NCBI GenBank assembly: GCA_947054505.1
Contig: CAMRWU010000002.1
Span: forward strand, 6,214 to 70,213
DNA length: 64,000 nt
Source of the DNA: an uncultured Pseudomonadota bacterium
GTDB lineage: Bacteria; Pseudomonadota; Alphaproteobacteria; RF32; CAG-239
Direction: 5' to 3'
In this document: positions 28,749 through 43,346 of the stretch, piece by piece
Layout of the letters: every line of letters starts with the position of its first letter
Numbering within the stretch: the stretch's first letter is position 1
Notes under the pieces: generated by a model
Seen by the model: only the letters and a program-made list of their open reading frames with translations
Database searches by the model: none
What the model was told of the DNA's origin: nothing
Program-made: the position numbers and the translations under genes

Positions 28749-29513
28749 TCACATGTCTAAAATCATACCATCATATGCCGGTTCAAAATAATCCGGCATA
28801 TGTTTTTTTATATCATCATAATCAACTCTGGTAGACAAATGTGTTAAAACAACTCGTTCTGGGCGCACTAACTCGGCAACACGCTTAACATTTTCCAGGT
28901 TACTGTGACCGTTTTTCTCATATACCAAACCATTGTTACACTCAATAACCAAAAGTTTGACTCCCCGCAATGCGGCAACCCCCTCTTCCGGCATATTCTC
29001 CCAATCAGTCACATAAGCAAAATCGCCACAACGCAGAGCCGAGCAATGCAATCGATGATGCGGCACTTGAAATGTCTGAAACCTCACGCCGCAACACTCA
29101 AAACTACCGCTATCCGGCAACAGCTTCCAGCGCAAACCAACACCATCAGGCTCTCCGCCATTAAACAAAAATCCAAAACAAGTTTTCAATTCCTGCTCTG
29201 TTTCTGCAGAAGACCACACTTCAACCGGATGCCCCAACATCTTACTCACACGCGGAAGCTCCGGAACACTGGCGATGTGATCATAATGCCCATGGGTCAA
29301 AAACACGGCATCGACATCCGTCAAACCGACTTGATTAACTTGCACACGAAACTCCGGTCCGGCATCAATAATAAACTTACGTCCGGCAACCTCAAAATAC
29401 ACCGAAGCGCGACTACGATAATTCCGTGGATTATCGGTACTAAGCCCCCGCCATTGATTAAAAGCCATCGGAGAACCATAAGCAGAACCGGAACCCAAAA
29501 CCACAACTTTCAT
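28749..29513 (-). CDS. MBL-fold metallo-hydrolase
   Basis: HxHxDH motif (THGHYDH). Confidence 0.7.
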   Translation of the reverse strand: MKVVVLGSGSAYGSPMAFNQWRGLSTDNPRNYRSRASVYFEVAGRKFIIDAGPEFRVQVNQVGLTDVDAVFLTHGHYDHIASVPELPRVSKMLGHPVEVWSSAETEQELKTCFGFLFNGGEPDGVGLRWKLLPDSGSFECCGVRFQTFQVPHHRLHCSALRCGDFAYVTDWENMPEEGVAALRGVKLLVIECNNGLVYEKNGHSNLENVKRVAELVRPERVVLTHLSTRVDYDDIKKHMPDYFEPAYDGMILDM

Positions 29514-30666: not shown

Positions 30667-32322
30667 TTATAAAAATAACAAAAAATGCTTGCCAAATAAA
30701 AAAAAGTGTCTTAGATATAGGACATCCACATTGATTGGGGTGTCGCCAAGTGGTAAGGCATCGGCTTTTGGTGCCGACATTCGTTGGTTCGAATCCAGCC
30801 ACCCCAGCCAGACTTGACAAGAGCCTATTTTAGCCAGTGCTAAGATAGGCTTTCTTATTGAAATATCTACATTTTTACCGTCTAATAAAATTTCCGAACA
30901 AAGTAATTTTAAAACCTGTTGTTTTTTGTCGTTGTTCAGAAAATTCCATATCTGGTCTGACATCAAAAGCAAGCCAGCCAAGTATTTGAGCGTTATCAGA
31001 CCTTGTTTAGTCAGATGACTATAGTCGGTTAATCGCTCTTCCAGTTTTTTCTTATCCTGTCTGTATTCGGTTAGTTTTTTGGTATATAAATCCTGTGTAA
31101 TACTGCCTTCCGTAAACAGGTCTATCAACCTGCTTTCCTTTTCTGCAAAACCTGCAATCTGCCTGTCCAATGCCTTCTTGGCTTCTATTTCCATTTTATG
31201 GTCTTTGTAAATTTCTTCATCCAAACAGGCAACCAATTTCTCGACAACGCTTTTAGGCATGTTTTTAAACGTTTTTAATGCCTCTCTCACTTTTTCAACC
31301 CCATTTTCCTCTCTCGTCCGATAGCCTCCGCATTGCGGACAAAAAAGGTATTTATAAACGACTTTTTCTCCGCCCTTCTTTTTCGCCGGATGTACATTGA
31401 TATCTGTCGAAACAACACCACCGCATTTTTTACAGCGAACCAATCCTTTGAATACATATTCATGCTTCTGCACCTTATGATTTGCCTTACCTTCCAAAAT
31501 TTCCTGACACCGTTCAAACGTATAGCTATCCGTCAGCCGCGGATAACAATGCGGATAATATTGCCCGCCACTGAACATCTCCCCGACATAAAAACGGTTG
31601 CTTAATATTCCGCGGATAGTCTGCTTATGAAGTTTCTTGCTGTTTTTCATCTTAAGCCCCAAGTCCGCGGCTTTCCGCGTTATCTGCTCAAGATTATAGG
31701 TACCAATCGAAAATTCCTTAAACAACCGCGTAATGATGAAATGGTTGTCCTCATCCAACACAATATCGCTGTTACCATTGGCATCCCTTACATTTTTATA
31801 GCCGACTGGTGCGTGATGTGGCCATTTTCCCTCTTTACGCATTTTTTCAAAGCTGCGTATTACATTATCACTCATCGTGTCTGTTTGCGACTGCGCAACT
31901 GTAATCCGAAAGTTCCACATCATCTTCTCATGAGCTTTGGCATTTTTCGCCATAATTGCTTGTTCCGTCTGAAAATGAATTGCAATTTTTTCTTTTTCAA
32001 TCAGCTTATTCAAAACATCATATTCCTTGAAGCTTCTTTGCAACCTATCAACTTTGTCACAAACCAAAGCAACCGGATTTTTATATTTTTTTATAAAATT
32101 TATCATATTATAAAATTCTTTTCGTTCACCTCTGGTCGAACTTTCAACAACGGTAAACTGCTTAATAATTGTCAACCCTTGCCGAATACAATAATTCTTT
32201 ACCCGGTCTTCCTGAGCATCAAGCGAATAACCTTCTTTCTGCTCTCTGCTTGATACTCGTATCCATAAAACGGCATGCTTTATATTTTTATCATTCACAA
32301 CTTTTGCAGCTTTTCTTCCCAT
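30667..32322 (-). CDS. large serine recombinase (integrase); the C-terminal ~50 codons read through tRNA-Gln on the opposite strand
   Basis: N-terminal resolvase domain (VLWIRVSSREQ), recombinase domain, zinc ribbon (CKKCGG...CPQCGG) and coiled-coil tail; the true C-terminus is uncertain because the ORF reaches a stop only after crossing the tRNA. Confidence 0.75.
   Translation of the reverse strand: MGRKAAKVVNDKNIKHAVLWIRVSSREQKEGYSLDAQEDRVKNYCIRQGLTIIKQFTVVESSTRGERKEFYNMINFIKKYKNPVALVCDKVDRLQRSFKEYDVLNKLIEKEKIAIHFQTEQAIMAKNAKAHEKMMWNFRITVAQSQTDTMSDNVIRSFEKMRKEGKWPHHAPVGYKNVRDANGNSDIVLDEDNHFIITRLFKEFSIGTYNLEQITRKAADLGLKMKNSKKLHKQTIRGILSNRFYVGEMFSGGQYYPHCYPRLTDSYTFERCQEILEGKANHKVQKHEYVFKGLVRCKKCGGVVSTDINVHPAKKKGGEKVVYKYLFCPQCGGYRTREENGVEKVREALKTFKNMPKSVVEKLVACLDEEIYKDHKMEIEAKKALDRQIAGFAEKESRLIDLFTEGSITQDLYTKKLTEYRQDKKKLEERLTDYSHLTKQGLITLKYLAGLLLMSDQIWNFLNNDKKQQVLKLLCSEILLDGKNVDISIRKPILALAKIGSCQVWLGWLDSNQRMSAPKADALPLGDTPINVDVLYLRHFFLFGKHFLLFL
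30689..30717 (+). promoter_or_regulatory. candidate sigma70 promoter for tRNA-Gln (TTGCCA-17 nt-TAGATA)
   Basis: -35/-10 hexamers with 17-nt spacing read by eye ~20 nt upstream of the tRNA 5' end. Confidence 0.4.
30736..30810 (+). tRNA. tRNA-Gln (anticodon UUG)
   Basis: cloverleaf folded by hand: acceptor UGGGGUG/CACCCCA (U1-A72), D-arm GCC..GGC, anticodon stem UCGGC/GCCGA with loop UUUUGGU, T-arm GUUGG-UUCGAAU-CCAGC, encoded CCA. Confidence 0.85.
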
Positions 32323-32428
32323 ATTCTTACCTTTCCGTATTAAAATTATACTTTATTTTAAGATTCATCATTTTGACAGGTCAAGGAAGGCCGGATGTAT
32401 TATCCAGCCTCCACTGGCCTAATTTGTT

Positions 32429-33280
32429 TTATGCTGCGACCTTCACCTCCGTTTCCTTGTTGGCAACTCTACCGAGTTCCCTGTCCAACTTCTTTTGAAC
32501 AGCATCAAAAATCATGTCATTGACTAAAGAGGTATATTTATGTTGATACAGTCTTCCGCCACTTCTCATGTACCCAGAATAAAAAGTATTCCGCAGCATA
32601 TGAAGCAATGTTCTTCGGCTGATTAAACTACCAGTAGTTGTATACAGAGGTAATGATTGAGCAATTTCAAGCAAATTTTTGATGCTGATTTCTGACCGTA
32701 AATAGGTATCAAATAGAAACTTAACTTTGTCAGCCTGTTCATCCGGCAGAATCCAAGGGCACCAACTTGGACGGCAATTTTTATATCCTATCGGTGCCTT
32801 GCCTGGGTAAAATCCATTCTCACGCATCGTTTGCAAAGCCTTTTTATCCTTTTCAGACTTGTCTGCAGAAAAATGCTCTGCTTTAGCAATCAACTCTCTG
32901 TATTCATATATATCATCCGCTGTAGAAAATAGTGAGATTACAATATGTTCTTTGACAAAGTGAATTTCGACTTTACCTGTTTGCACCAACTCGTCCAATA
33001 AACTCATGTGATTAAAGTTCCGGGCTAAACGGCTAGATTCCGACAAAACCAAAGCTACAGGCGTTACTTTTACTTGCTGGATTAAATCTAATATCTCATT
33101 AAATTTCGGACGTCTTTTAGTAAAGGCGCTTTCAATTGCTTGCTTATTTTGTATGATTTCAAAATTCTTACTTCGGCAATACTCTTTACAGATGGCTTCC
33201 TGTTCAGAGAGAGAGTTACCGATATTCTGCTTTACAGAAGAAATTCGGCACATAATTATTGCATTTTTAGCAAAATCCAT
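32429..33280 (-). CDS. serine recombinase, short (resolvase plus recombinase domains, no zinc-ribbon/coiled-coil)
   Basis: AIIMCRISSVKQ catalytic-Ser motif; 283 aa, lacking the C-terminal domains of the neighbouring 551-aa paralog. Confidence 0.65.
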   Translation of the reverse strand: MDFAKNAIIMCRISSVKQNIGNSLSEQEAICKEYCRSKNFEIIQNKQAIESAFTKRRPKFNEILDLIQQVKVTPVALVLSESSRLARNFNHMSLLDELVQTGKVEIHFVKEHIVISLFSTADDIYEYRELIAKAEHFSADKSEKDKKALQTMRENGFYPGKAPIGYKNCRPSWCPWILPDEQADKVKFLFDTYLRSEISIKNLLEIAQSLPLYTTTGSLISRRTLLHMLRNTFYSGYMRSGGRLYQHKYTSLVNDMIFDAVQKKLDRELGRVANKETEVKVAA

Positions 33281-34406
33281 CTCTATTTCCTTTCGTTAAA
33301 GTTATGATTTGATTTTCATTAATAGCTGCGGTTATGCCGTCCAAATCCGGCTGCAGCCAGTTGTTTTGCGGTTCGAGCCGGTTAATCAGCCGAAACAGTT
33401 CATAAATTGCCGGTGAAAAAGAGTTCCCCGCATGTAGCCGCAATTCTCGTTTGCCCATCGTCTTCAGTATCGTTACTAAACCGACAAGCTGCAGGGCTTT
33501 TAGAAACTTATATTTGGCATCCAGCAGACGCTTGAATAAATCTGCCGAATTTTCTTCGCTTAACTGCTGATATCTGACAGCCGCCAAAATTTCATTCCAA
33601 TAAACCAGCGTAATAGCTCGGCAAATTTGACTGCTGAAAAGATTTTGGAATGTCAGCTCCGGAACTGGAAGCCCCGCTTTGCTGATGGCTTGGCGGATAT
33701 TCTCAGAATTGCCTAACTGAATTTCAACCCGTAAATATTGGCTTGAGCCTAGGGCTGCCATATCAATTGTCTGGGCATTTTCGGAACTGACAGCCCGACT
33801 TTTACAATACCGGGCTTTTTGAATATCTTTGAGTTTATCGTAAATAACGACATTCCGGTGTCGGGCTAAAAAATGCAGCGAATGCCCTTCGTTTCGGTAT
33901 GACACCTTGGTACAATCGAGCCGACGGCTGATGTCAGCTTTGTTCAAATATTGTAAAATCACACAGGGTGCGACTTTAACCAAGACATTCTTACCAAAGT
34001 CAATCCTTACAACTTGTGCCGACCGCAACACTTGAGACGAAGCATCAACACCCATCTCGTGAAGCCGTAATGCCAAAATGCTGATGACATCTTCAAAGTC
34101 GGCATCGCAAACTTCTTCCAGATTGTTGGGCGGAAAATGCAGAAGTTTCGGTGTGGAAAATTCAATTTTCAACTTAACGCTGAAACCTCCGTGCCGCAGC
34201 ACGCTGCTTAATGACAGCCTAGGGTAGTAATGCTGTTGCTGCTCTTCACGCGTTGCAAAGTTATAGCAGGTCACAGCCTCCGCCCCTTGCATATCCCAGA
34301 GGATTTGCGGATTAGGCTTAAAACGCCCAAGCTCTGTTATTGTGATGTCCGTGTAATCGACCAGCAAAACGCAGGTATCACAGACATTTTTATTATTTGT
34401 GCTCAT
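33267..34406 (-). CDS. hypothetical protein, possibly a Rep_trans-like rolling-circle initiator/relaxase
   Basis: 379 aa with VVRIDFGKN resembling the RxDxAxD-type motif of Rep_trans initiators; this is inference only. Confidence 0.35.
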   Translation of the reverse strand: MSTNNKNVCDTCVLLVDYTDITITELGRFKPNPQILWDMQGAEAVTCYNFATREEQQQHYYPRLSLSSVLRHGGFSVKLKIEFSTPKLLHFPPNNLEEVCDADFEDVISILALRLHEMGVDASSQVLRSAQVVRIDFGKNVLVKVAPCVILQYLNKADISRRLDCTKVSYRNEGHSLHFLARHRNVVIYDKLKDIQKARYCKSRAVSSENAQTIDMAALGSSQYLRVEIQLGNSENIRQAISKAGLPVPELTFQNLFSSQICRAITLVYWNEILAAVRYQQLSEENSADLFKRLLDAKYKFLKALQLVGLVTILKTMGKRELRLHAGNSFSPAIYELFRLINRLEPQNNWLQPDLDGITAAINENQIITLTKGNRDGFC

Positions 34407-34584
34407 TGACAGACCTTCCTTTCATTTGAGCATTGATTAAAACTTCCAACTCAGGATTTTCCTGAGCGGCCTCATGTAATATCTTCAACAGAGCAACAAG
34501 ACTTTTGCCTGCATCGACAGCTTCATCCGCCGTCAAGTCAGGACAACACTTCAAAATCTCATTATTTAGCGCTTGGTAATTCAA
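34393..34584 (-). CDS. small hypothetical protein (63 aa), upstream of and overlapping the Rep-like gene
   Basis: ORF in operon arrangement (14-nt overlap). Confidence 0.35.
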   Translation of the reverse strand: MNYQALNNEILKCCPDLTADEAVDAGKSLVALLKILHEAAQENPELEVLINAQMKGRSVNEHK

Positions 34585-34759
34585 GACAGAGCTCTCCGTT
34601 GATGTTATTTACGGGGGCTCTTTACAAGATGATATTCTGAAAATTAACTATATTTAGAAAAAAAAGATAAAAAAAATCCTATAAATTCACATAATTACAA
34701 ATAGTTATGTATTTTATTTTTATAGGATAATATATATATTTTAATATGATAACAGACAT

Positions 34760-34793
34760 CAAAAAAACACTCTTTCATAAAAGAAAGAGTGTT
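34760..34793 (-). terminator. rho-independent terminator after the XRE gene
   Basis: ACACTCTTTC-ATAAA-AGAAAGAGTGT hairpin with a minus-strand T-run. Confidence 0.55.
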
Positions 34794-34812
34794 CTCCAAC
34801 TAAAGAAATACC

Positions 34813-35262
34813 CTAAGGCCTTTTCTTTAGGCGCTCATCCGATGGATAAAAGGCATCTCGGTTCGTACATTCTGGACTTGTTTTATACAAATTCCATGTA
34901 GCATATGTATTTGCCAATACTTGTAGCATAACTTTTAATAGTGCACTATCGCTTTTTTCTAACAAGCTCATAATTTTCCCTGTAGTAGTTGTTCTCTTTG
35001 GATATAATGATATTATGAACTCATCAAACTGATAATCTAAAGCTTCAGACAACGACATTAATGTAAGTAGACTTGCATCAACCTCGCCTTTTTCAATCTT
35101 GTAAATTGTATTAACATTCACATGAGATTTTTGAGCTAAGAGCTGCAACGAATATTTCTTTCTCTGTCGTAGTTCCGCTAATTTTGCCCCAATTTTCTTT
35201 ACTCGACCGATATATCTCTTTTTACGATATTCTCTTTGTTCTGATTTATATTTATTTGTCAT
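34813..35262 (-). CDS. XRE-family HTH transcriptional regulator
   Basis: helix-turn-helix LQLLAQKSHVNVNTIYKIEKGE. Confidence 0.65.
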   Translation of the reverse strand: MTNKYKSEQREYRKKRYIGRVKKIGAKLAELRQRKKYSLQLLAQKSHVNVNTIYKIEKGEVDASLLTLMSLSEALDYQFDEFIISLYPKRTTTTGKIMSLLEKSDSALLKVMLQVLANTYATWNLYKTSPECTNRDAFYPSDERLKKRP

Positions 35263-35474
35263 TTTATTGCCTTGCTTTAATGTTTATAAAATAGCAAAAA
35301 CCGTTTTCCTTTCAAAGTCAAATTATTAGAAATATTTCCCACAAAAAACAGCCCCGAATAAGAAATATCCGGGGCTGCTTAGTTTTAGTGATTTAACGCT
35401 TAAAATTTATACTTAGCGTTAATCAATCCTGTGTGGTCTTGGTAAACCACCTCAGATTTGAGGTGTTTATAACA

Positions 35475-36398
35475 TTAATATACTAATTCACTATTGCCGC
35501 ATAGGGCATCAGACATATAAACCGCTCCCAAGACACTTCGGTTGGTATAATCTTGGTTATCTAAGGGGTTATTTTCATTTTTGCTATAATATTCAGTCGG
35601 CACCAACTTACCACCTCGTTGCTCAAAATTGATTCTAAAAATATCAGATACTTTAATTATTAGGGCAGAACCTTTAACCGAAAATGAATAATTTTCTTGT
35701 TTACTAAATCTGTTATCTGCCATTGATAATAATGACATACCGATAATGACATCCTCAATTTTGCAGTCCTTTTTAACCAAACTTTCAACTGGCATTCCAA
35801 TCATAGATGGCGCAGACTTTTTAAATCTGCCATACAATTTCGACTTATTAAAAGTTTTCATAAATTCAGCTTTTTGTTTCGTGTAATTTTGTTCGATTTT
35901 CAGTTTATGCCGAAGATTTCCGGCCATCCAGGCCTTAATCTCTCCATGAGCCCAGTAGCTCTTTAACTTTGTCGTTTTTTCCCTGTCTTGAATAAAATCA
36001 TTTTTTAAACAAAAACCGGCGACTTCATTCAATATTCCATAACTATCATAAGTTTCGCCATCCCTTTCGCTCAAGTCTTTCATTTTCTTATCGCGATAAA
36101 AAACAGAGGGCATTTCAAGATAGCTATTGATTACAAGATTAGCTTGCGGGATATTGACTGAGGACAAACCATTTCTTGTTTTAAGCTTATCATTCACATT
36201 CAGAATTTCTGTTTCCAGTTTTATAAGTTTATCCCAATCATAATTTTCCACATACTTATTCTCAAAGCTTTTGCATCTTCCCACGCCTAATAATTTTTTT
36301 GTGGGAATGCTAAATTGACTAAAATAGGCTCCCTGTTTCTCATCATTAATTATGGCGCAACCGCTAAGCATAAGCATTATCATTAAAAACTTTTTCAT
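35475..36398 (-). CDS. hypothetical lipoprotein
   Basis: lipobox MLMLSGCAI; no recognised domain. Confidence 0.5.
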   Translation of the reverse strand: MKKFLMIMLMLSGCAIINDEKQGAYFSQFSIPTKKLLGVGRCKSFENKYVENYDWDKLIKLETEILNVNDKLKTRNGLSSVNIPQANLVINSYLEMPSVFYRDKKMKDLSERDGETYDSYGILNEVAGFCLKNDFIQDREKTTKLKSYWAHGEIKAWMAGNLRHKLKIEQNYTKQKAEFMKTFNKSKLYGRFKKSAPSMIGMPVESLVKKDCKIEDVIIGMSLLSMADNRFSKQENYSFSVKGSALIIKVSDIFRINFEQRGGKLVPTEYYSKNENNPLDNQDYTNRSVLGAVYMSDALCGNSELVY

Positions 36399-36413
36399 AG
36401 TCCTCTCCTCTAA

Positions 36414-36914
36414 TTATTCATAATCTTCAACGCCGTTCTCTGTCATTCGATAGTATAAAACACCATCTCTGGCCTTGCCATCGACATCCCAGAACAACGC
36501 TTCAATACTGGCACAATTAGTTTCTTCCAAATCCAAATCTGCCCCAACTTCTACCCTTTGTTTATCACCGTTGTTAGCATCTTGAATAAACTCTCTTAAA
36601 ACAAACTGGACACTCCGCCCCCCTTGAGGAAAGCAAAACCTTCTATAAACAGTTGTCTTATATACATCTCTGATTGAATAAACATCAGTTATTATTTCTG
36701 CATAAATTGGCCTGTCATTCCGCACGCCATCCATCTTTGTACATTGGGTTTTAATGCTTGAAACAACTTCTTTTCCATCACATGCCGAAATATAGTTAGC
36801 CTCAGGAATTTCAAAACCATACTGCTCATGGTAAGCACCATACACAGCAAAAATTATGACCATTATTCCTACAACATAAAGAAATTTATGCCAAAGATAT
36901 TTTAGTTTTTCCAT
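36414..36914 (-). CDS. hypothetical membrane-anchored protein
   Basis: 166 aa with a single N-terminal TM helix. Confidence 0.45.
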   Translation of the reverse strand: MEKLKYLWHKFLYVVGIMVIIFAVYGAYHEQYGFEIPEANYISACDGKEVVSSIKTQCTKMDGVRNDRPIYAEIITDVYSIRDVYKTTVYRRFCFPQGGRSVQFVLREFIQDANNGDKQRVEVGADLDLEETNCASIEALFWDVDGKARDGVLYYRMTENGVEDYE

Positions 36915-37329
36915 TTAGTTTCTCCCTTTTTCTAATTCTAACAAAAATAAAAGTCGCCAAAGTTCCATGGCGACCGGGAGTTAGTAACTGCACTATAACA
37001 GCATGATGCTTTTGGCATAATGCTTGGACATAACATCATCTCCCGGTCATAAAAACCGGAAGAAGTGTTTTTTGATTTCGGTCTGCCTTCTAAAATCTCA
37101 GACCGTATAGTGAAGAGGTTACTACGCCCCAGTCCGACAATCGAACCAGTTTTATATTAGGTTAAACCGGGAAAAAAAGTCAAAGAATTTTTTTTAATAT
37201 TCAAGTCCGTCAACTCATTATATAATTTTAGTTTTATAATGAGTCCTTATTTTTTAAGCGTTGTAAGACTTTAAGCCTGGACTTTTATTTTATACTCATT
37301 ATAATTTATTACATAAATTCAATAACATA

Positions 37330-37947
37330 ATGAGTTTGAGGCAAAAAATGGCACTTAATAAACAGGCAAAAATCCTCACGCCAAAGCAGCAGGAACTGAC
37401 ATTGAGCTATTTGGAACGGACAAGATATCCGCTCCGCAACAAAATTATTTTTATGCTTAGTTACAAGGCCGGATTGCGGGCAAAGGAAATAGCGAATCTA
37501 AACTGGCTGATGGTTTGCGACTCGGAAGGAAACTTGAGCCGAGAAATTAACCTTATTAATAAGGCATCCAAAGGTAAACAATCTGGTCGGATTATTCCGT
37601 TGCATAAAGATTTGGCGGTCTTATTAGCGGAATTGCTAAGCAGACAACAGAAGAATAAGCATTTTAATTTGACGAATCGGATTATTACGACAGAACGCGA
37701 CAATAAGACCAGCCCGCAGGCAATCGTCAATTTCTTTTATAATTTATATAAGGAAATCGGGTTTGAAGGCTGCTCCTCGCATAGCGGCCGCAGAACCTTC
37801 ATCACCACTGCTGCTAAAAATATCAGCCTTGCCGGCGGAACCTTAAACGATATCCGCATGTTGGCCGGACATTCCACCCTTGCTACCACCCAACGCTATA
37901 TTGAATACAATACCGATGCACAGAAGAAAATTGTGGAGATGGTTTAA
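37330..37947 (+). CDS. small tyrosine recombinase (catalytic domain only, FimB/FimE-sized)
   Basis: box I R (AGLRAKE), HSGRRTF, and GHSTLATTQRYIE with catalytic Tyr; only 205 aa and no N-terminal arm/core-binding domain. Confidence 0.7.
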   Translation: MSLRQKMALNKQAKILTPKQQELTLSYLERTRYPLRNKIIFMLSYKAGLRAKEIANLNWLMVCDSEGNLSREINLINKASKGKQSGRIIPLHKDLAVLLAELLSRQQKNKHFNLTNRIITTERDNKTSPQAIVNFFYNLYKEIGFEGCSSHSGRRTFITTAAKNISLAGGTLNDIRMLAGHSTLATTQRYIEYNTDAQKKIVEMV

Positions 37948-39071
37948 GAAGAACGCATACAAGATGGTGATGAAACTACAACACATCCATCAAATTTTAA
38001 ACCATATATTCCATTTTTGAATTTTTGATGTTCTTCCGTTGATGCTTGATTATCCCATAAAAAAGCAACAAGTTTACATTTTTCATATTCTTCAGATGCT
38101 GTATATAGAGTTTTGTCCGCAGCTAATTCTTCAGTCAAATCAGCAAATGTTTTTGCTTTACCTTTTCTATATTTCACCTCAATTATCAAATGAAGTTCAG
38201 GAATATAAAGATCAGCTCTAGGATTCTTATGCCCCTGTTGTGGAAGATTGATTTCTTTTTGTATTCTCGGAAAAATTGGTGCCAGCATCACATACAATAA
38301 ATTTTGAACATGATATTCATTTTCTATAAGCCATTTTACAGGTGGACTGGTTTTTGTTTTGGGTTTTTCTTCCCAAGTCCAGCAATTCAATCCCATCGAA
38401 ATATTTTCCATAAAGGAAATTAAATTTTCCAAACTCCAATTATTCGCTGGAACCGTTGCTTGTTCTTCTGAAATATGATTAAAAATATAAATTAAAGCAG
38501 CTATTAACCACACAGAAGAAATATCCTCTACCTTAGTATATATCTTCCAGAACTCTGCAATGCAAAAATCTTTCAAATCCGTCTGTAATTCATATAGCCC
38601 TTTGTAATGCAGTAATAAAAGCACGACAGGAGAAGAAACTTTATTTGAAATATCCTCATTCAGCACAAATTTTGCCAAAGTTTCTTCATGTAAATTGAAT
38701 TTTTGTTTTTTAACTGCAAATCTTAAAAAATTTTCAATCCAGCTATTGAAGGCTCCTATTAAAATATCATTTTTTGATGCTGCTACAGCTAACTTAATTC
38801 CCAATAAACCAATAACATCATAATGCCATGGCATAGGCACTCCATCAATTTCTGCAGCACATTTAAATAATCGGCTTAATTTTTCTTGATTACAAATGCC
38901 ATTAAATCCATTGATTGCACACTCATAAAAGTCTGCATCATTAAAAACATTTTGTGTACTCAATCCTAAATATTTTACAAAGGCATCTACATTAGTATTT
39001 GTTCCACAACCTTGGATAAGCTTCTCATTAAGATACTCTTTAATATGATAGTTATTATTTACAGAAACCAT
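37944..39071 (-). CDS. pAgo-associated protein with C-terminal PD-(D/E)xK-like nuclease motif
   Basis: 375 aa; C-terminal ENEYH...RADLYIPELHLIIEVKYRKGK gives an E...D-x11-E-V-K arrangement typical of restriction-endonuclease-fold nucleases; 13-nt overlap with the upstream pAgo gene. Confidence 0.5.
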   Translation of the reverse strand: MVSVNNNYHIKEYLNEKLIQGCGTNTNVDAFVKYLGLSTQNVFNDADFYECAINGFNGICNQEKLSRLFKCAAEIDGVPMPWHYDVIGLLGIKLAVAASKNDILIGAFNSWIENFLRFAVKKQKFNLHEETLAKFVLNEDISNKVSSPVVLLLLHYKGLYELQTDLKDFCIAEFWKIYTKVEDISSVWLIAALIYIFNHISEEQATVPANNWSLENLISFMENISMGLNCWTWEEKPKTKTSPPVKWLIENEYHVQNLLYVMLAPIFPRIQKEINLPQQGHKNPRADLYIPELHLIIEVKYRKGKAKTFADLTEELAADKTLYTASEEYEKCKLVAFLWDNQASTEEHQKFKNGIYGLKFDGCVVVSSPSCMRSS

Positions 39072-41257
39072 TTAGCCCTTCCTGTCTTTTGAAATAAGCA
39101 GCTATTATCCCATTTGGGTAATTGATTTAACCAGCCTAAACTATAAGCAATTAAATTTGAATACATTATTGTAACTGGTAATGGTGCTACAAAATAACTT
39201 CTCCAAGAATGAGCCGAAAAATTAAATATTTGATTGCTCAGATATTTAATATCCTTAAATGTAGAATCTTTATGAACACTTGCATAAACACATTGAGGGT
39301 GGCCATCATTAGTTTTTTTAAGTTCTGCACCCCCTGTTAAACATAATAACATGGCATAATCTGAAATTTTAAAATACTGTCCCCTAGTTGGTGCCAAACA
39401 TCCCTTGTTTTCATTATCCCTATTTGTATCAAAAGTTTCCCATAAATGTTCTTTCGATAATTTTACAAATGCATATTCAATATTATACTCTTTGAATTTC
39501 TTTATAACATCTTTTACTGCTTCAATTTCATATCCATTAAACTCTTTTACCATAGAGTGAAAGACAATTCTGATAGTATCACCTTCTACCCAACTCATCG
39601 ATGCTTTAACTTTATCAATTGTAGTTTCCAAAACATTTGCTAGTTCGTCTTTATATCCATCAGGAAAAACCGCATTAGATTTTCCAGTAAGAATATATTG
39701 ACCGCTACCGCTAAATACTGTTGTTATTCCCATAACTCTATTTTTTCTGGTATTCTGCTCGCCTTCAGAAATAAATGCACTACCAATTCCTATTACCAAC
39801 TCATGTACAACGGTTGGTATTGATTGCAATAACCAAGGGACACCGCCCATTTTTGCATATGTAGCTAAAGCCATATTATTTAATGAATATCCTAAGGTTA
39901 TATCATTTTGTTGAAGTGTCTCTATTGTAAAATCCTGAACCGGTATATCACGAGCCATCAACATTGATTTTGCGGTAAAATAAGGATTATCCTTGACATT
40001 CAAATCTTTAAATGATTTTTCAATTTGAACCAATGCTAGATCCCATAATTTCTCGCCAGCCTTATATTCCAAAGCATTTTCAATGGCTTTTTTATATCCT
40101 GCAGGTGTATTTGATGCAAATGTAAATATTTTAACAGTACTTCGGCCAATTCCAAATTTTCCTTCTAAACCATTACTAAAATATTTATGTTCATTAATTC
40201 CACTCAGAAATTTACGAACAAATTGTTCAACTTCTCCTTGCCTTGATTCTGAACAAATTACACATATCGCAGGGTTATTTCTGTCAAAGTGAGCTTTTGT
40301 ATAAGGGCCAAATTTTTTCAAACCATATTCTATTCCTGTTGCAATAGAACTATTTGCAAATGTAAATTGCGGTTTTTCAAAATTATTTATTTTAGAAGTG
40401 ATATTAAAAAGTTCCTCAATTTGGATTCCATTATTTTCAAAAAATTGAGATTTTTTAAGAAAATTTGCAAAAGCTTTAATCTTGCTAAATTTGTTTTTAC
40501 CGTTACTAAAAGCGGAAACAGCATTATACAACTTCTCGTTTATTTTTTGAGCAGATGTCCTATACAAAAGACTCAAATAATCTTTAATATTTTTATAGCT
40601 TGGTATCAAAAAAAGGCTATCTGAAGCATAATTCTGGCTATCGCCATTTGTTTCACAAATAATATTATTTCCTTCATAGCTTTTAATTTTTCCAACTTTT
40701 TTTCTTTCACCATTAGGTAAATTTATATAAGCCTTTCTTCCGATTAAATTAAAACCTTTAGAATAAAAATAATTACATGGATAGCTTGTCTGATATCTAA
40801 CGGAGGTATCAACTAAAATGCAGGTCTCATTCTCAATTTCCCGAACATCAATCAAGTACGAAGGAAGTGCCGCAAAAGGAAAATCAGTATTTAAAACTTT
40901 TTTTATAATGTCTTCCTCAGACTTAGAGCTAATAAGGCAAATCGGATTAAAACCCCAAGCCTTATTTTTTCCAGCGTTATCAATAGCTTTTTTTATTGCA
41001 TATTTTATTAAAACTTTTCTAAAATCACTATATTCTTCATCCGTAATATCAATCTCTTTTACCCACTCTTGTAATTTGCTATCATATTGCTGTTCAAATG
41101 AAAAACCTAATATTTCCATACCTTTATGTCGATAAAATATGACAGATTTATATTTTACTTTCAATTCATTAAATAAATCATCAGAATATTTTAAAACACA
41201 AATAGAAAATTTTGTTTGTTTTAATTTAACTGGGCATCCATTCAAATAAATTGCCAT
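39059..41257 (-). CDS. prokaryotic Argonaute (pAgo), catalytically inactive PIWI (long-B-like)
   Basis: 732 aa; PIWI signature YAKMGGVPW then VIGIGSAF in place of GxDV(S/T)H (D to G), RIVFHSM in place of the RDG motif, and IMYSNLIAY in place of the YYA(H/D) motif. Confidence 0.7.
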   Translation of the reverse strand: MAIYLNGCPVKLKQTKFSICVLKYSDDLFNELKVKYKSVIFYRHKGMEILGFSFEQQYDSKLQEWVKEIDITDEEYSDFRKVLIKYAIKKAIDNAGKNKAWGFNPICLISSKSEEDIIKKVLNTDFPFAALPSYLIDVREIENETCILVDTSVRYQTSYPCNYFYSKGFNLIGRKAYINLPNGERKKVGKIKSYEGNNIICETNGDSQNYASDSLFLIPSYKNIKDYLSLLYRTSAQKINEKLYNAVSAFSNGKNKFSKIKAFANFLKKSQFFENNGIQIEELFNITSKINNFEKPQFTFANSSIATGIEYGLKKFGPYTKAHFDRNNPAICVICSESRQGEVEQFVRKFLSGINEHKYFSNGLEGKFGIGRSTVKIFTFASNTPAGYKKAIENALEYKAGEKLWDLALVQIEKSFKDLNVKDNPYFTAKSMLMARDIPVQDFTIETLQQNDITLGYSLNNMALATYAKMGGVPWLLQSIPTVVHELVIGIGSAFISEGEQNTRKNRVMGITTVFSGSGQYILTGKSNAVFPDGYKDELANVLETTIDKVKASMSWVEGDTIRIVFHSMVKEFNGYEIEAVKDVIKKFKEYNIEYAFVKLSKEHLWETFDTNRDNENKGCLAPTRGQYFKISDYAMLLCLTGGAELKKTNDGHPQCVYASVHKDSTFKDIKYLSNQIFNFSAHSWRSYFVAPLPVTIMYSNLIAYSLGWLNQLPKWDNSCLFQKTGRAKWFL

Positions 41258-41377
41258 ATTTCAGCTTTCAGACAGTATTAAATAAATTTTGCAAAAAGAC
41301 TACAAATCAAAAAAAGGTAGCCTATATTGAATACTTAGGAATTTTTTTATTCTGTATCAAGAGCTAAAAGTATTTTT

Positions 41378-41650
41378 TTATAAATTTTTACTACTTAGCA
41401 TATTTTTATCCGCTCTTTCAAAAATGGCACCTAAGATTTCAAGGTTTTTAATCGTAGCTTTTAATATCTTGTTTTGCATTGCACGGAGCGTATAAAAATT
41501 TTTGCTTTTGTTTGATTCCATTGTTTTGACAATCATTTCAACTTCCAAGCCTGTATAGCAACGCATTATTCGCGTAAACGGATTACTGAAATGCTTTAGT
41601 GCATAATTTAATGCCGTATTGTCCAGACAAATATAAAAGTCCTTAATCAT
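41378..41650 (-). CDS. small hypothetical protein (90 aa)
   Basis: ORF in AT-rich island DNA; no recognised domain. Confidence 0.3.
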   Translation of the reverse strand: MIKDFYICLDNTALNYALKHFSNPFTRIMRCYTGLEVEMIVKTMESNKSKNFYTLRAMQNKILKATIKNLEILGAIFERADKNMLSSKNL

Positions 41651-41698
41651 TTTTATTATTTCCTTCTGCTGTTGGCTATATAATAAAAATATTGAGCA

Positions 41699-41866
41699 CT
41701 AGCCTTTTTCTATTGTCATCATCTGCCGCAAATCGTCATCCATGCCGTTAATAATAAGGTACATTTCCGCTAATTCCTGTTCATATTTTTTCCTAAGGTC
41801 ATAAACCTTGGTCAGCCAGAGTTCAAAAGTCGTCAGAAATGGCGATTTTTTCTTTTTATCAAGCAT
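41699..41866 (-). CDS. small hypothetical protein (55 aa; not in the ORF track)
   Basis: ATG-initiated ORF MLDKKKKSPFLTTFELWLTKVYDLRKKYEQELAEMYLIINGMDDDLRQMMTIEKG, read by hand. Confidence 0.25.
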   Translation of the reverse strand: MLDKKKKSPFLTTFELWLTKVYDLRKKYEQELAEMYLIINGMDDDLRQMMTIEKG

Positions 41867-42191
41867 TTAAGCTAGTTCGAAGATGAATATATTTTGAAGG
41901 CTTGTTTTGCAGTATCTTCGAACTCACTTCTATATTTTTCAATAACTTAGCAAATTTCAGCCTTTTTTAAGCAAAAAAATAACCTCTGCTAATTTTTACA
42001 GAGGTTTATAGTCATTTAACTTACATTTTTAAGAAAAACAAGTTAACTCTTGTTACTCTCAATTCCTAAAGTTTCATGTTTCTTGGCTAGCGTTATCATC
42101 TGCAAAGCAATCGCCACTACTCTCTATAAAGTAGTATAATAGATGGAATACTTATTATATAAAGAGCAAGTTTTAATTTAGAAAGTAATTT

Positions 42192-42704
42192 CTATCTCTC
42201 TTTAATATAATCTAGAAATTTTTGAGAATAGCCCTCTTGGGATTTCTTATAAAGAATACCCTCTGCCTCTCTTTTCTGTTCCATTTTTTCTTTTAAATAT
42301 GCCTCTCTCTTTTCTACTTCCGGTTTTACCAACTCAAAATCATCTTTCACAATCTTTTCATAAGTTTTTGACGCCTCTTCAGTAAGTTTGTATCTCTCTA
42401 TTATATTGCTCTTTAAAACTTTATTTAACACACTCTGGAACGGCCATGAATCACTTTCTTTATTAGAAAGTACATAAGCTTGTATTTTGGAAAGTGAATA
42501 TAAGGATCCTTTTTTTAATGAGTATCCATCGACAACAAAACCACCATCTGCGTCAAAACTACTTGTTCCTTCCCAATGCATATCCGCAGTTTTGGGATGA
42601 GCCGACAATAAATAACGTCCATCAATACCTTTGTGAATAACGAGTGCCTGTGTAACTTCAGATTTATTTTCATTATCCACTATAATAATTTTACTTTTTT
42701 CCAT
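42192..42704 (-). CDS. hypothetical protein
   Basis: ~170 aa ORF; start probably at MEKSKIII. Confidence 0.4.
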   Translation of the reverse strand: MEKSKIIIVDNENKSEVTQALVIHKGIDGRYLLSAHPKTADMHWEGTSSFDADGGFVVDGYSLKKGSLYSLSKIQAYVLSNKESDSWPFQSVLNKVLKSNIIERYKLTEEASKTYEKIVKDDFELVKPEVEKREAYLKEKMEQKREAEGILYKKSQEGYSQKFLDYIKER

Positions 42705-42826
42705 TGTTTTATCCCCTTTCAAAATCTTCTTATATTGCAAATATATTTTTTTATATCAATTATTATATCCTAAAATCATAAATATTTCAACATAAATCTC
42801 GGAAACTGCACGTCGTCTCCAGCCAT

Positions 42827-42857
42827 AAAAACACCTCTTTATGAGGTGTTTTTTTAT
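42827..42857. terminator. terminator-like hairpin
   Basis: ACACCTC-TTTAT-GAGGTGT followed by a T7 run. Confidence 0.5.
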
Positions 42858-42869
42858 TAGATAGAGTAG

Positions 42870-43040
42870 CCATGGGAGAACCACCGGTTCGGAACGGATA
42901 GTTGGAGAAAACAAACATTGAGCTAGCAAAATGCGATGTTTGCCCCTTACGGCACGAAGAAACCACGCTCCGCGGGAGTACCCAATCCTGACAGACTGAA
43001 CAGAGGTTAAATTTTCGGATTTAACCTCTTGTTTTTTTTA
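42870..43040 (+). ncRNA. candidate small RNA or cis-regulatory leader ending in an intrinsic terminator
   Basis: ~170-nt noncoding segment with internal helices (AACAAACAT/ATGTTTG; CCGCGGG) ending in GAGGTTAAAT-TTTCGG-ATTTAACCTC plus a T9 run; class not identified. Confidence 0.3.
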
Positions 43041-43133
43041 TCAACAGAATTGAGTTTGGTTAAGTTATCATTAGCTAACCACCATTCCAATATTTACCAA
43101 CAAAAACTTACAAACATTTAATGCCTAAATCCT

Positions 43134-43346
43134 ATGAAAAAAATATTGCTTATATTAACAATCCTCTTATTTACGACATCCTCATTTGCCACTGAAGATA
43201 AAGCCGTAATTATGAATATCCAAACATATATCTATCATCATCCTTCCTGCAAATGGGCTAAAAAATGCACAAAGAATTGTATCAAAACCACCAAACAAAA
43301 AGCCCAAACTCAAGGAGCTCGGGCATGTAAAGTCTGTGGCGGATAA
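43134..43346 (+). CDS. small secreted cysteine-rich protein (possible metal-binding)
   Basis: 70 aa with signal peptide and an HHPSC...C...C...CKVCGG cysteine pattern. Confidence 0.4.
   Translation: MKKILLILTILLFTTSSFATEDKAVIMNIQTYIYHHPSCKWAKKCTKNCIKTTKQKAQTQGARACKVCGG

What the first reader, a model, noticed from the sequence alone, without database searches (positions are those of the whole stretch)
30736..43100. About 12-kb AT-rich island inserted at tRNA-Gln(UUG) with serine recombinases, a Rep-like gene and the pAgo cargo
Immediately 3' of tRNA-Gln(UUG) the gene content switches from housekeeping genes to mobile-element and orphan genes. There are two serine recombinases, a possible Rep_trans-like protein with an RIDFGKN motif, an XRE regulator, two envelope proteins, a small tyrosine recombinase, the pAgo operon and several tiny ORFs, all in DNA that is visibly more AT-rich than the flanks. 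Housekeeping-like genes resume near 43.4 kb (yeaD-like). This looks like an integrative, possibly mobilizable, element delivering a defense system.
Basis: partly seen in the sequence, partly recalled or inferred. Interest (0 to 1): 0.6.

Follow-up and report, generated by a model that had tools for sequence, protein, structure and literature searches.

The report
Serine-recombinase defence island at tRNA-Gln
The AT-rich block is a real, horizontally moving 11-kb genomic island that a serine recombinase inserted right after a tRNA-Gln gene in an uncultured human-gut alphaproteobacterium; it carries an Argonaute defence system, and it matters mainly because its recombinase family targets tRNA ends, which is unusual.

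Summary
tRNA-Gln(UUG) lies at 30736-30810. An 11,008-bp element (30811-41818, GC 0.354 against 0.41-0.44 outside) follows its CCA end. Behind it are two recombinase-less remnants (41819-42825 and 42826-42993), then the ancestral tRNA terminator (42994-43045).

Related genomes have tRNA-Gln followed directly by a terminator. Two more distant species carry the same element at the same tRNA, with 80-94% DNA identity against 68-75% for the flanks, which indicates horizontal transfer.

The element encodes:
- a large serine recombinase (LSR) whose ORF runs across the attachment site;
- a second, shorter serine recombinase;
- a divergent relative of the filamentous-phage G2P replication initiator;
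- an XRE regulator and two envelope-type proteins;
- a 205-aa tyrosine recombinase;
- a cargo slot holding a pAgo plus PD-(D/E)xK nuclease (BPAN-like).

In relatives the same slot holds KAP NTPase, SoFic, PD-Lambda-5, CapH/CapP-like or other genes.

More distant LSR relatives sit in the same way at tRNA-Trp, Asn and Leu. No circular form was found.

Verdict: a new variant of a known kind, working like an SCC element but not a member of that family. Interest is moderate.

The parts
30736..30810 (+). tRNA-Gln(UUG). Its 3' end is the chromosomal left half of the attachment site (B arm). The gene is intact after insertion.
   Evidence: Host-specific anticodon-stem variants are kept in L022 and L027, so the crossover lies 3' of the anticodon stem.
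30805..30812 (.). attL core CAGCCAGA, repeated at attR1. The crossover is inferred to lie at or next to the CCA end.
30811..30862 (+). P' arm: GAC-TTGACAAGAGCC followed by a 15-bp hairpin (-20.2 kcal/mol) and a U-rich tract. It lies inside the LSR 3' coding end and probably replaces the tRNA terminator.
   Evidence: The TTGACA motif sits 3 nt after CCA at tRNA-Gln, Trp and Asn, and as TTTACA at Leu.
30667..32322 (-). Large serine recombinase ORF, 551 aa. Residues 1-504 are encoded by the element. W505 is read from the tRNA's CCA, which lies in the core shared by attP and attB. Residues 506-551 are antisense translation of the tRNA and the host DNA upstream of it.
   Evidence: Pfam Resolvase 3e-19 and Recombinase 1e-10; phrog_95 integrase 1e-59 over residues 7-490. 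The tRNA-Trp relative stops at 506 aa, and the alignment ends at ..IGSCQ[VI]W.
32429..33280 (-). Second, shorter serine recombinase (283 aa). It has Resolvase + Recombinase domains, no zinc ribbon or coiled coil, and the catalytic motif RISS.
   Evidence: Conserved next to the LSR in L022, L036 and many metagenome loci.
33267..34406 (-). Rep379, a divergent relative of the G2P/Phage_CRI rolling-circle replication initiator. Y189 and K191 of the YDK motif are invariant.
34393..34584 (-). 63-aa ORF overlapping the start of Rep379. A 74-aa ORF occupies the same position in the tRNA-Trp elements.
34813..35262 (-). XRE-family HTH regulator (149 aa).
   Evidence: Pfam HTH_3 2e-11.
35475..36914 (-). 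Two envelope-type orphan genes: a lipobox protein (307 aa, 35475-36398, LSGC) and a 166-aa protein with an N-terminal membrane helix (36414-36914).
   Evidence: Sequence. No family hits. 87-92% identical in L022 and L090.
36930..37200 (.). G+C-rich structured intergenic stretch. Candidate origin or small RNA; function unknown.
   Evidence: ssDNA fold z = -4.5. Weak sRNA-Xcc1 hit, 32.5 bits against a gathering score of 53.
37212..37947 (+). Conserved module: four copies of ACTCATTATA in two inverted pairs (37212-37336), plus a 205-aa tyrosine recombinase gene (37330-37947, catalytic domain only).
   Evidence: Pfam Phage_integrase 7e-18. Homology to relatives begins exactly at 37212 and ends at the stop codon, and both flanks vary.
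37944..39071 (-). pAgo-associated PD-(D/E)xK nuclease (bAgaN-like, D..EVK motif).
   Evidence: PADLOC Aga_Helical-REase 3.5e-94 and Pfam DpnII-MboI 5e-39. The motif is described in PMC10620215.
39059..41257 (-). Long prokaryotic Argonaute (732 aa). Its gene overlaps the nuclease gene by 13 nt.
   Evidence: PADLOC pAgo_II 1.9e-222 and Pfam Piwi 3e-11.
41378..41650 (-). 90-aa orphan conserved at the element's right end. Candidate directionality or regulatory factor (inference).
   Evidence: 76-96% identical in L022, L027, L044, L067, L081 and L102.
41699..41818 (-). P1 arm, the right end of the element. It encodes the 39-residue tail (WLTKVYDLRKKYEQELAEMYLIINGMDDDLRQMMTIEKG) that continues the LSR ORF when P1 is joined to P'.
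   Evidence: The in-frame fusion is seen in L044, L079 and L081. The frame and stop position are conserved in six sequences, three of them 18-22% divergent at DNA level. Homology to L027 ends at 41818.
41819..41862 (+). B'1: a terminator hairpin homologous to the sequence directly downstream of tRNA-Gln in L028 and L066. This was the pre-insertion partner of the tRNA.
41819..42825 (.). Recombinase-less remnant 2. It holds a 182-aa orphan (42192-42740, - strand) and ends in arm P2 (..CGTCGTCTCCAGCCA).
   Evidence: In L046 the 28 nt 42798-42825 recur, joined to P'-LSR. L089 has the same arm type at 86% over 56 nt.
42826..42993 (.). Remnant 3. It starts with terminator B'2 (42826-42856) and ends in arm P3 (..CCCAATCCTGACA).
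   Evidence: No counterpart was found in other loci.
42994..43045 (+). B'3: the ancestral tRNA-Gln terminator, displaced 12.2 kb from its tRNA.
   Evidence: 87% identical to the sequence after tRNA-Gln in L024. Called as a terminator.

Best explanation
The block is a composite integrative island at the 3' end of tRNA-Gln(UUG) in an uncultured human-gut alphaproteobacterium.

The intact unit (30811-41818) was inserted by its own large serine recombinase (LSR). Recombination took place between an element site (P1|P') and the chromosomal site, which consists of the tRNA's CCA end plus its terminator. The tRNA stays intact, and the element brings a replacement hairpin and U-tract. The old terminator now lies at 41819.

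The element site lies inside the LSR gene, 39 codons before its stop. The free form would therefore make a 543-aa enzyme with a conserved helical tail. The integrated form makes a 551-aa enzyme whose tail is antisense tRNA.

The conserved core is a small ORF, the G2P-like Rep, a short serine recombinase and the LSR. I infer that this core excises, replicates and re-inserts the element. A second conserved module, a 205-aa tyrosine recombinase with repeats upstream, sits beside a slot where defence genes are exchanged. Here the slot holds a BPAN-type pAgo-nuclease pair.

The 1.2 kb after 41818 consists of two older recombinase-less segments. Each ends in a tRNA-end-like arm followed by a terminator.

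Shown here: the insertion, its boundaries, horizontal spread, modular cargo exchange, and the ORF running across the attachment site.
Inferred: excision, replication, transfer route, and the role of the tail and of the two accessory recombinases.
For: Insertion and boundaries:
- Empty sites in relatives and a displaced terminator.
- L027 and the window diverge exactly after ..GGTCAGCCA (41818), each continuing into a different terminator.
- An 8-nt core, CAGCCAGA, is present at both ends.

Horizontal transfer:
- Island DNA is 80-94% identical between species whose flanks are 68-75% identical. At protein level, Rep is 94% and pAgo 86% identical against 64% for the flanking protein.
- GC is 0.354, below every 11-kb window outside the island.

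Recombinase at the end of the element:
- The LSR domains are intact and the gene is outward-facing.
- 62 human-gut metagenome loci carry the P' motif: 19 directly after a full tRNA-Gln, 5 after a full tRNA-Trp and 1 after a partial one.
- More distant LSRs (26-56% identical or less) abut tRNA-Trp, Asn and Leu, with TTGACA (TTTACA at Leu) 3 nt after CCA.

Tail:
- In-frame P1-P' fusions occur in L044, L079 and L081.
- There are no indels or premature stops, and about equal numbers of synonymous-only and non-synonymous codon changes.

Cargo slot:
- pAgo + nuclease; KAP/PDC-S20 in a same-species variant; a 737-aa HATPase-nuclease-like protein; SoFic, PD-Lambda-5 and CapH/CapP-like genes. A Mrr-type REase lies elsewhere in the L067 array, beyond p90.

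Rep:
- AF2 model with pLDDT 83.
- BFVD hits with probability 1.0 to phage proteins, one from an Inoviridae.
- Phage_CRI matched by 13 of 17 close and 11 of 52 diverse family members, best 5e-7.
Against: - No free circular form or same-species empty site was recovered. Exact attP searches in metagenome and viral collections gave nothing, no contig had terminal overlaps, and the P1-P' junctions seen all lie in chromosomal arrays next to truncated LSRs.
- In a same-species variant (L001) the LSR lacks its catalytic domain. At least some copies are therefore fixed.
- The long tail is specific to P1-type elements. tRNA-Trp relatives have only a 2-3-residue tail in either state, so the tail swap need not be functional.
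- The window's Rep379 is below Pfam's threshold (20.2 against 21.7 bits) and has no PDB match.
- How tandem arrays could form under the strict attP x attB rule of LSRs is unexplained.
- The exact crossover dinucleotide is not determined.
Confidence: 0.8

Rival explanations
1. The island is a decayed, no longer mobile remnant. It is an old insertion hotspot now reshaped only by homologous recombination and deletion. The LSR is an inactive relic, and the island is inherited vertically within this species.
For: No circular junction or same-species empty site was found. The L001 variant has an N-terminally truncated LSR. Many metagenome loci hold only LSR 3'-end stubs (L081, L060, L053, L058). The sister species L020 keeps only an 84-nt stub.
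Against: The window's LSR, short recombinase, Rep and tyrosine recombinase ORFs are all full-length with catalytic motifs. LSRs 98-99% identical occur at tRNA-Gln in several independent samples (L056, L061, L082, L101). Cross-species identity far exceeds that of the flanks. The tail-coding arm is under coding constraint.
Confidence: 0.15
2. The island is an integrated filamentous (inovirus-like) prophage or one of its satellites. The G2P-like Rep, the XRE (RstR-like) repressor and the small or membrane proteins would be the phage core, and the LSR only the integration module.
For: Phage_CRI similarity and structural hits to phage proteins, including one from an Inoviridae. A weak RstR-family hit for the XRE protein. 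A lipoprotein and a membrane protein lie next to it.
Against: None of the 11 island proteins scanned matches a morphogenesis ATPase (pI/Zot), a coat protein or a secretin; the 55-aa ORF and the ORFs under 50 aa were not all scanned. L027 carries the LSR, tyrosine recombinase and pAgo but lacks Rep, XRE and both envelope genes. tblastn of Rep379 against 50,697 phage records gave no match. The P' motif gave no hit in IMG/VR.
Confidence: 0.05
3. The 205-aa tyrosine recombinase is the enzyme that put the island, or at least the pAgo cassette, at the tRNA, as in classical tRNA islands. The serine recombinases would be resolvases or invertases.
For: tRNA genes are the classical targets of tyrosine integrases (for example Islander's premise, PMC7426155). 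The cargo varies exactly at the borders of the tyrosine-recombinase module.
Against: The gene is internal, 6.4 kb from attL and 3.9 kb from attR1. The protein lacks an N-terminal DNA-binding domain. No direct repeat of the tRNA flanks the island. In every relative it is the LSR's 3' end that abuts the tRNA. A role in cassette exchange within the island is not excluded.
Confidence: 0.05

Closest known systems
Staphylococcal cassette chromosome elements (SCCmec and relatives)
   Same: Both have two adjacent serine recombinase genes. Both insert at the very 3' end of a conserved housekeeping gene without destroying it. Both have variable cargo and an element-encoded replication function (for SCC, from my own knowledge). 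Both form composite tandem arrays that include recombinase-less pseudo-elements, each bounded by a short repeated core.
   Different: The target is a tRNA CCA end, not rlmH. The recombinases are not Ccr orthologues: NCBIfam CcrA/CcrB scores are 37-43 bits against cut-offs of 700-900. The second recombinase lacks the zinc-ribbon/coiled-coil part. The host is a gut alphaproteobacterium. The cargo is anti-phage defence. The attachment site lies inside the recombinase ORF.
Integrative and mobilizable elements (IMEs) with relaxases related to rolling-circle initiators (Coluzzi et al. 2017, PMC5357655)
   Same: Small size (about 11 kb). An outward-facing integrase at one end. A rolling-circle-initiator-like protein and no mating-pore genes. 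Accretion in tandem at one site.
   Different: In that survey, RCR-type relaxases always came with tyrosine integrases, and serine integrases almost always disrupted protein-coding genes. Here an LSR is paired with a G2P-like protein at a tRNA. No coupling protein or oriT was identified, and mobilization is unproven.
Phage and prophage large serine integrases (PhiC31, Bxb1, A118, SPbeta)
   Same: Resolvase-Recombinase-zinc-ribbon-coiled-coil architecture. A short core. No long direct repeats. Directionality expected to need an accessory factor.
   Different: At most 33% identity to any LSR in 50,697 phage and 72,556 plasmid records. The targets are tRNA 3' ends. The large LSR survey PMC10083194 does not contain the word tRNA. 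The ORF spans attP.
Tyrosine integrases whose attP lies inside their own gene (Mx8 IntP/IntX, SSV-type archaeal integrases)
   Same: Integration changes or splits the integrase ORF, so the free and integrated forms encode different proteins. This comparison rests on my own knowledge of these systems, not on a test here.
   Different: Those are tyrosine recombinases. Here only the last 39 codons are exchanged. The effect on activity is unknown and is not general across the clade.
BPAN (long-B pAgo + bAgaN nuclease) abortive-infection system (Song et al. 2023, PMC10620215)
   Same: The cargo is a full-length pAgo with an overlapping gene for a two-domain PD-(D/E)xK nuclease carrying the D..EVK motif.
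   Different: Only the cargo is concerned. The catalytic-tetrad status of this pAgo was not checked. Carriage on an LSR island at a tRNA is the new context.

Membership tests
Site-specific integrative genomic island at a tRNA | Abuts the 3' end of a tRNA gene, which remains intact | tested here: met
Site-specific integrative genomic island at a tRNA | Absent from related genomes, which have an uninterrupted target | tested here: met
   L024, L025, L026 and L029 (also L021 and L023, with rearranged synteny) have tRNA + terminator. L020 lacks the island.
Site-specific integrative genomic island at a tRNA | Encodes its own integrase at one end, with a repeated core at both junctions | tested here: met
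   LSR at the left end. Core CAGCCAGA at 30805-30812 and 41813-41820.
Site-specific integrative genomic island at a tRNA | Excises to a circle and restores attB | not testable with these tools
   Exact-junction scans were negative. This needs read-level data or PCR.
Large serine recombinase (integrase) | N-terminal resolvase catalytic domain with the active-site serine, recombinase domain, zinc ribbon and coiled coil | tested here: met
   Pfam Resolvase and Recombinase. RVSSREQ and CKKCGG..CPQCGG are visible in the sequence. phrog_95 integrase 1e-59. The coiled coil is inferred from its position only.
SCC elements | ccrAB or ccrC recombinase orthologues | tested here: not met
   NCBIfam CcrB 43.1 bits (cut-off 900) and CcrA 36.9 bits (cut-off 700).
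SCC elements | Integration at the 3' end of rlmH (orfX) | tested here: not met
   The target is tRNA-Gln.
Integrative mobilizable element | Relaxase and oriT that exploit a helper's mating pore | tested here: inconclusive
   No canonical MOB family was found. Rep379 is G2P-like. No oriT was identified.
Integrative mobilizable element | No type IV secretion (VirB4) genes of its own | tested here: met
   The 11 island proteins scanned against Pfam give no such domain. One 55-aa ORF was also scanned with no hit.
Phage_CRI / G2P rolling-circle initiators (for the 379-aa protein) | Significant match to the family profile | tested here: inconclusive
   The window protein scores 20.2 bits against a cut-off of 21.7. 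11 of 52 diverse relatives match, best 5.1e-7. BFVD fold hits reach E 4e-8. The PDB gives none.
Phage_CRI / G2P rolling-circle initiators (for the 379-aa protein) | Conserved catalytic tyrosine; nicking at an origin | not testable with these tools
   Y189 and K191 are invariant in 52 sequences. Their identity with the catalytic tyrosine of G2P was not established.
Inovirus prophage | Morphogenesis ATPase (pI/Zot) and coat proteins | tested here: not met
   No hit for any of the scanned island proteins in Pfam or PHROGs.
BPAN long-B pAgo-nuclease defence system (cargo) | Full-length pAgo with an adjacent bAgaN-type PD-(D/E)xK nuclease gene | tested here: met
   PADLOC pAgo_II 1.9e-222 and Aga_Helical-REase 3.5e-94. 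The genes overlap at 39059-39071.
BPAN long-B pAgo-nuclease defence system (cargo) | pAgo lacks the DEDX catalytic tetrad; protects by abortive infection | not tested
   No reference alignment was made, and the phenotype needs an experiment.
Integron | IntI-type integrase with attI and attC-bounded cassettes | tested here: inconclusive
   The only IntI-related evidence is the best NCBIfam hit, to the archaeal XerA 'tyrosine recombinase/integron integrase' model: 53.5 bits, far below its cut-off of 220. No attC-like repeats turned up in the repeat scan. The IntI-specific insertion was not examined.

The most novel reading that the evidence does not exclude
This is one example of an undescribed clade of large serine recombinases that specialises in the CCA-3' ends of tRNA genes (Gln, Trp, Asn and Leu seen here). 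Its attP lies inside its own reading frame. In P1-type elements, integration therefore swaps a conserved 39-residue helical tail for junk sequence. This would be a built-in sensor of the free versus integrated state that biases directionality.

The same enzymes would also move recombinase-less segments in trans. Each such segment runs from a terminator to a tRNA-end-like arm. Together they build integron-like or SCC-like arrays of defence genes at tRNAs in gut bacteria.
Probability: 0.3. Interest if true: 0.75.

Novelty: new variant of a known kind. Interest (0 to 1): 0.55.

Why it matters
Genomic islands at tRNA genes are textbook tyrosine-integrase territory. A family of serine integrases that use the tRNA CCA end would widen the known rules of target choice. 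These enzymes keep the tRNA intact, bring their own terminator and read across their own attachment site.

Such enzymes would be compact, cofactor-light integrases with conserved, ubiquitous landing sites, which would be useful for engineering uncultured gut bacteria.

The island also shows how a pAgo-nuclease system and at least six other cargo sets, most of them defence-type, are shuffled between species of an abundant but uncultured human-gut lineage. It gives a concrete, testable case of state-dependent remodelling of an integrase's C-terminus.

Tried and rejected
1. A repeat search for a duplicated tRNA 3' end flanking the island found nothing of 14 nt or more. This fits a serine recombinase.

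2. I first placed attR at 42993 and built the circular junction from arm P3. Exact searches for that junction gave nothing. Comparison with L027 and L044 later showed that the true right end is P1 at 41818. The P1-P' junction was also absent from IMG/VR.

3. Sister species L020 is not a clean empty site. It keeps an 84-nt stub of the LSR 3' end followed by what looks, by eye, like a RibD_C/DHFR-type gene; I did not scan it.

4. Contigs ending inside the tRNA (L005, L008) were considered as signs of polymorphism. They are better explained by the second tRNA-Gln in the genome.

6. Rep379 against phage and plasmid records by tblastn gave no match.

7. Rfam gave only the tRNA above threshold in the island.

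8. No relative showed an inversion of the repeat-flanked segment upstream of the tyrosine recombinase.

9. None of the 62 metagenome loci has overlapping ends, so none is evidently circular.

Full report
**Observation.** ARAGORN and Rfam both place tRNA-Gln(UUG) at 30736-30810 on the + strand.
- a 551-aa large serine recombinase (LSR), 30667-32322, - strand;
- a 283-aa serine recombinase, 32429-33280;
- a 379-aa protein with a sub-threshold Phage_CRI hit, 33267-34406;
- an XRE regulator, 34813-35262;
- a lipobox protein and a membrane-anchored protein, 35475-36914;
- a 205-aa tyrosine recombinase, 37330-37947, + strand;
- a PD-(D/E)xK nuclease, 37944-39071 (PADLOC Aga_Helical-REase 3.5e-94);
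- an overlapping pAgo gene, 39059-41257 (PADLOC pAgo_II 1.9e-222);
- small orphan ORFs.

The element has GC 0.354. Every 11-kb window outside the island lies between 0.412 and 0.439. The pAgo cargo has GC 0.305 and GC3 0.20. The recombinase/Rep core (0.405) is close to host composition.

**Organism and empty sites.** Contigs encoding the identical flanking 324-aa protein, and a scan of GTDB genomes, identify the host as an uncultured human-gut alphaproteobacterium known only from MAGs.
- Relatives L024, L025, L026 and L029 have tRNA-Gln followed directly by a terminator hairpin. L021 and L023 do too, but with rearranged synteny.
- Window 42994-43045 is 87% identical to the sequence just after tRNA-Gln in L024. 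The tRNA's original terminator therefore now lies 12.2 kb from the tRNA.
- Sister species L020 (flank protein 91% identical) lacks the island. It keeps only an 84-nt stub of the LSR 3' end, followed by an unrelated gene.
- L022 and L027, whose flanking protein is only 64% identical, carry the element at the same tRNA. Island DNA is 80-94% identical against 68-75% for the flanks.

This is the signature of horizontal transfer.

**Boundaries.**
- On the left, genomes with and without the element diverge immediately after the tRNA's CCA (30810). L022 and L027 keep their own lineage's anticodon-stem variant, so the crossover is 3' of the anticodon stem.
- On the right, homology between the window and L027 stops exactly after ..CCTTGGTCAGCCA (41818). 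Each genome then continues into a different terminator.
- The window's continuation (41819-41862) is homologous to the sequence directly downstream of tRNA-Gln in L028 and L066.
- The mobile unit is therefore 30811-41818 (11,008 bp), with the core CAGCCAGA at both junctions.

Two further junctions of the same form follow, each a tRNA-end-like arm ending in ..CCA/..ACA and then a terminator. They lie at 42825/42826 and 42993/42994. Arm P2 recurs in L046 (28 nt identical), and in L089 at 86% identity, where it is joined to an LSR 3' end. I read 41819-42825 (which holds a 182-aa orphan) and 42826-42993 as older recombinase-less remnants.

**The recombinase reads across its own attachment site.**
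- The LSR ORF runs antisense through the whole tRNA. Residues 1-504 are element-encoded, W505 is read from the CCA, and residues 506-551 come from the tRNA and the DNA upstream of it.
- A 56%-identical LSR at tRNA-Trp (L036, L038) aligns up to ..IGSCQ[VI]W and stops 15 nt into that tRNA.
- In L044, L079 and L081 arm P1 is joined to the LSR end, and the ORF continues in frame as WLTKVYDLRKKYEQELAEMYLIINGMDDDLRQMMTIEKG*.
- The same 39 codons lie at the window's right end (41699-41818). They were previously read as part of a 55-aa ORF.
- They keep frame and stop position in six sequences, three of which are 18-22% divergent. Synonymous-only changes are about as frequent as non-synonymous ones.
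- The free form would thus encode a 543-aa enzyme with a conserved tail, and the integrated form a 551-aa enzyme with an unrelated tail.

Whether this difference matters for activity is unknown. The tRNA-Trp relatives have only a 2-3-residue tail in either state.

**A tRNA-targeting clade.** The 21-nt P' motif occurs in 62 human-gut metagenome loci.
- In 19 it directly follows a full tRNA-Gln.
- In 5 it follows a full tRNA-Trp, and in 1 a partial one.
- In the rest it follows non-tRNA arms ending in ..CC(A/T)GCCA. Some of these carry 18-27 nt of tRNA 3' end.

More distant LSRs sit in the same configuration at tRNA-Asn (L034) and tRNA-Leu (virome scaffold MT837677). A conserved TTGACA (TTTACA at Leu) lies 3 nt after CCA, followed by a hairpin and a U-tract. 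A fifth LSR lies 60 nt from tRNA-Glu (MT836653), but without the motif.

The element-supplied hairpin in the window (30820-30853, -20.2 kcal/mol) probably replaces the tRNA terminator. This is an inference.

The closest LSRs in 123,000 phage and plasmid records are at most 33% identical. The large LSR survey PMC10083194 never mentions tRNA. The IME survey PMC5357655 reports that serine integrases almost always disrupt protein-coding genes.

**Modules and cargo.** The block of small ORF, Rep, short serine recombinase and LSR is conserved down to 52-56% identity. L027 shows that Rep, XRE and the envelope genes can be lost.

The tyrosine-recombinase module (37212-37947) is conserved, with both flanks variable. 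Homology begins exactly at the first ACTCATTATA repeat and ends at the stop codon. No inversion was seen.

The convergent slot holds different cargo in different genomes:
- pAgo + nuclease here and in L027;
- a 737-aa HATPase/nuclease-like protein in L022;
- a CapH/CapP-like pair, SoFic + partner, and PD-Lambda-5 in other loci.

A Mrr-type REase lies elsewhere in the L067 array. A same-species variant (L001) replaces 31747-41706 with a KAP NTPase (PDC-S20), leaving an LSR without its catalytic domain.

The cargo here matches BPAN as described by Song et al. (PMC10620215), including the D..EVK motif. I did not check the pAgo's catalytic tetrad.

**The Rep-like protein.**
- It belongs to a large family without a Pfam model: 1,125 clusters at E <= 1e-3.
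- The AF2 model is confident (pLDDT 83, pTM 0.83).
- It matches nothing in the PDB.
- It matches predicted structures of phage proteins, one from an Inoviridae, with probability 1.0 and E down to 4e-8.
- Phage_CRI is matched by 13 of 17 close relatives and 11 of 52 diverse relatives, best 5e-7.
- Y189 and K191 of a YDK motif are invariant.

I accept it as a distant G2P-type initiator homologue, not as a shown Rep_trans. Its role, whether replication of the excised circle or relaxase-like mobilisation, is inferred.

**What is not shown.**
- No circular form and no same-species empty site were found.
- The attP-like P-P' junctions all lie in chromosomal arrays. How these arrays form under the attP x attB rule of LSRs is unexplained.
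- In some loci a tyrosine-integrase island has inserted between the tRNA and the LSR element (L049). This accounts for some of the partial-tRNA arms.

**Comparison and verdict.** The closest working analogue is the SCC element. Shared features are paired serine recombinases, insertion at the extreme 3' end of a conserved gene, a replication function, variable cargo, and composite arrays with recombinase-less pseudo-elements. The island fails SCC's defining tests, which are Ccr orthology and the rlmH target. It also resembles IMEs with rolling-circle-type relaxases, but with an LSR in place of a tyrosine integrase.

The island itself is a new variant of a known kind. The tRNA-end-targeting LSR clade and the ORF that spans attP are the parts worth following up.

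Noticed in passing
window 36930-37200 (Rfam hit 36964-37048, - strand): A G+C-rich, strongly structured intergenic stretch between the membrane-protein operon and the tyrosine-recombinase module. The ssDNA fold has z = -4.5. There is a full-length but sub-threshold match to the integron-associated sRNA-Xcc1 (32.5 bits, gathering score 53). The stretch is 92% conserved in L022 and L090.
   Followed up: partly
window 37212-37336: Four copies of ACTCATTATA in two inverted pairs lie just upstream of, and overlapping, the start codon of the 205-aa tyrosine recombinase. In eight relatives homology begins exactly at 37212. This could be a recombination site or an operator. No inverted orientation was seen in 11 loci.
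   Followed up: partly
window 43134-43346 (+): A 70-aa gene lies between the last junction and yeaD (weak Ada_Zn_binding/DUF6520 hits). A copy 71-76% identical sits immediately upstream of the tyrosine-recombinase module inside many related islands (L044, L046, L047, L055, L059, L074, L084, L102). GC here is still low (0.343). This stretch may be yet older island debris and not host DNA.
   Followed up: partly
L020 3976-4059 (equivalent to window 30811-30894): The sister species keeps an 84-nt stub of the LSR 3' end right after its tRNA-Gln, with only 2 mismatches although the flank is 87% identical. An ORF that looks by eye like a RibD_C/DHFR-type gene (not scanned) follows; its stop codon lies 2 nt beyond the break. 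This is a deletion or replacement scar.
   Followed up: partly
L081 (two P' motifs 247 nt apart) and L044: Tandem stubs of the last ~74 codons of the LSR, each preceded by a tRNA-end-like arm, lie between a complete element and yeaD. This implies repeated insertion and decay at one site, which the attP x attB rule of serine integrases does not readily explain.
   Followed up: partly
L066 340-3504, L086 and L049: Recombinase-less segments of 1.4-3.8 kb lie between the tRNA and an LSR element. Each starts with a terminator and ends in a tRNA-end-like arm. L066 has three ORFs of 593, 192 and 140 aa that I did not scan; from the sequence I guess type I R-M subunits. L049 has what looks like a tyrosine-integrase fragment.
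   Followed up: partly
L105 (MT837677.1) 847-2389 and L106 (MT836653.1) 7568-9156: Two unannotated 'Bacteriophage sp.' scaffolds from human faecal viromes encode LSRs 29-33% identical to this one. The first overlaps the 3' end of tRNA-Leu(CAG). The second lies 60 nt from tRNA-Glu(UUC). Their presence in virome data hints at packaging or contamination.
   Followed up: partly
window 28749-29513 (-): A host-flank metallo-beta-lactamase-fold gene carries precomputed Pfam hits to Anti-Pycsar_Apyc1 as well as Lactamase_B. It is conserved in all relatives next to the 324-aa gene, so it is probably housekeeping and not an anti-defence gene.
   Followed up: no
L001 6966-8744 (replaces window 31747-41706): A same-species variant has a 532-aa KAP-family NTPase (PADLOC PDC-S20, 4e-70) in place of 10 kb of the island. 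The left breakpoint falls at the boundary between the resolvase and recombinase domains of the LSR (about residue 192). The right breakpoint falls at the stop codon of the tail-coding arm.
   Followed up: yes
window 57116-57189 (+): A second tRNA-Gln gene (anticodon CUG) lies 26 kb downstream. No island was noted next to it. It probably explains why some metagenome contigs break inside the first tRNA-Gln.
   Followed up: no
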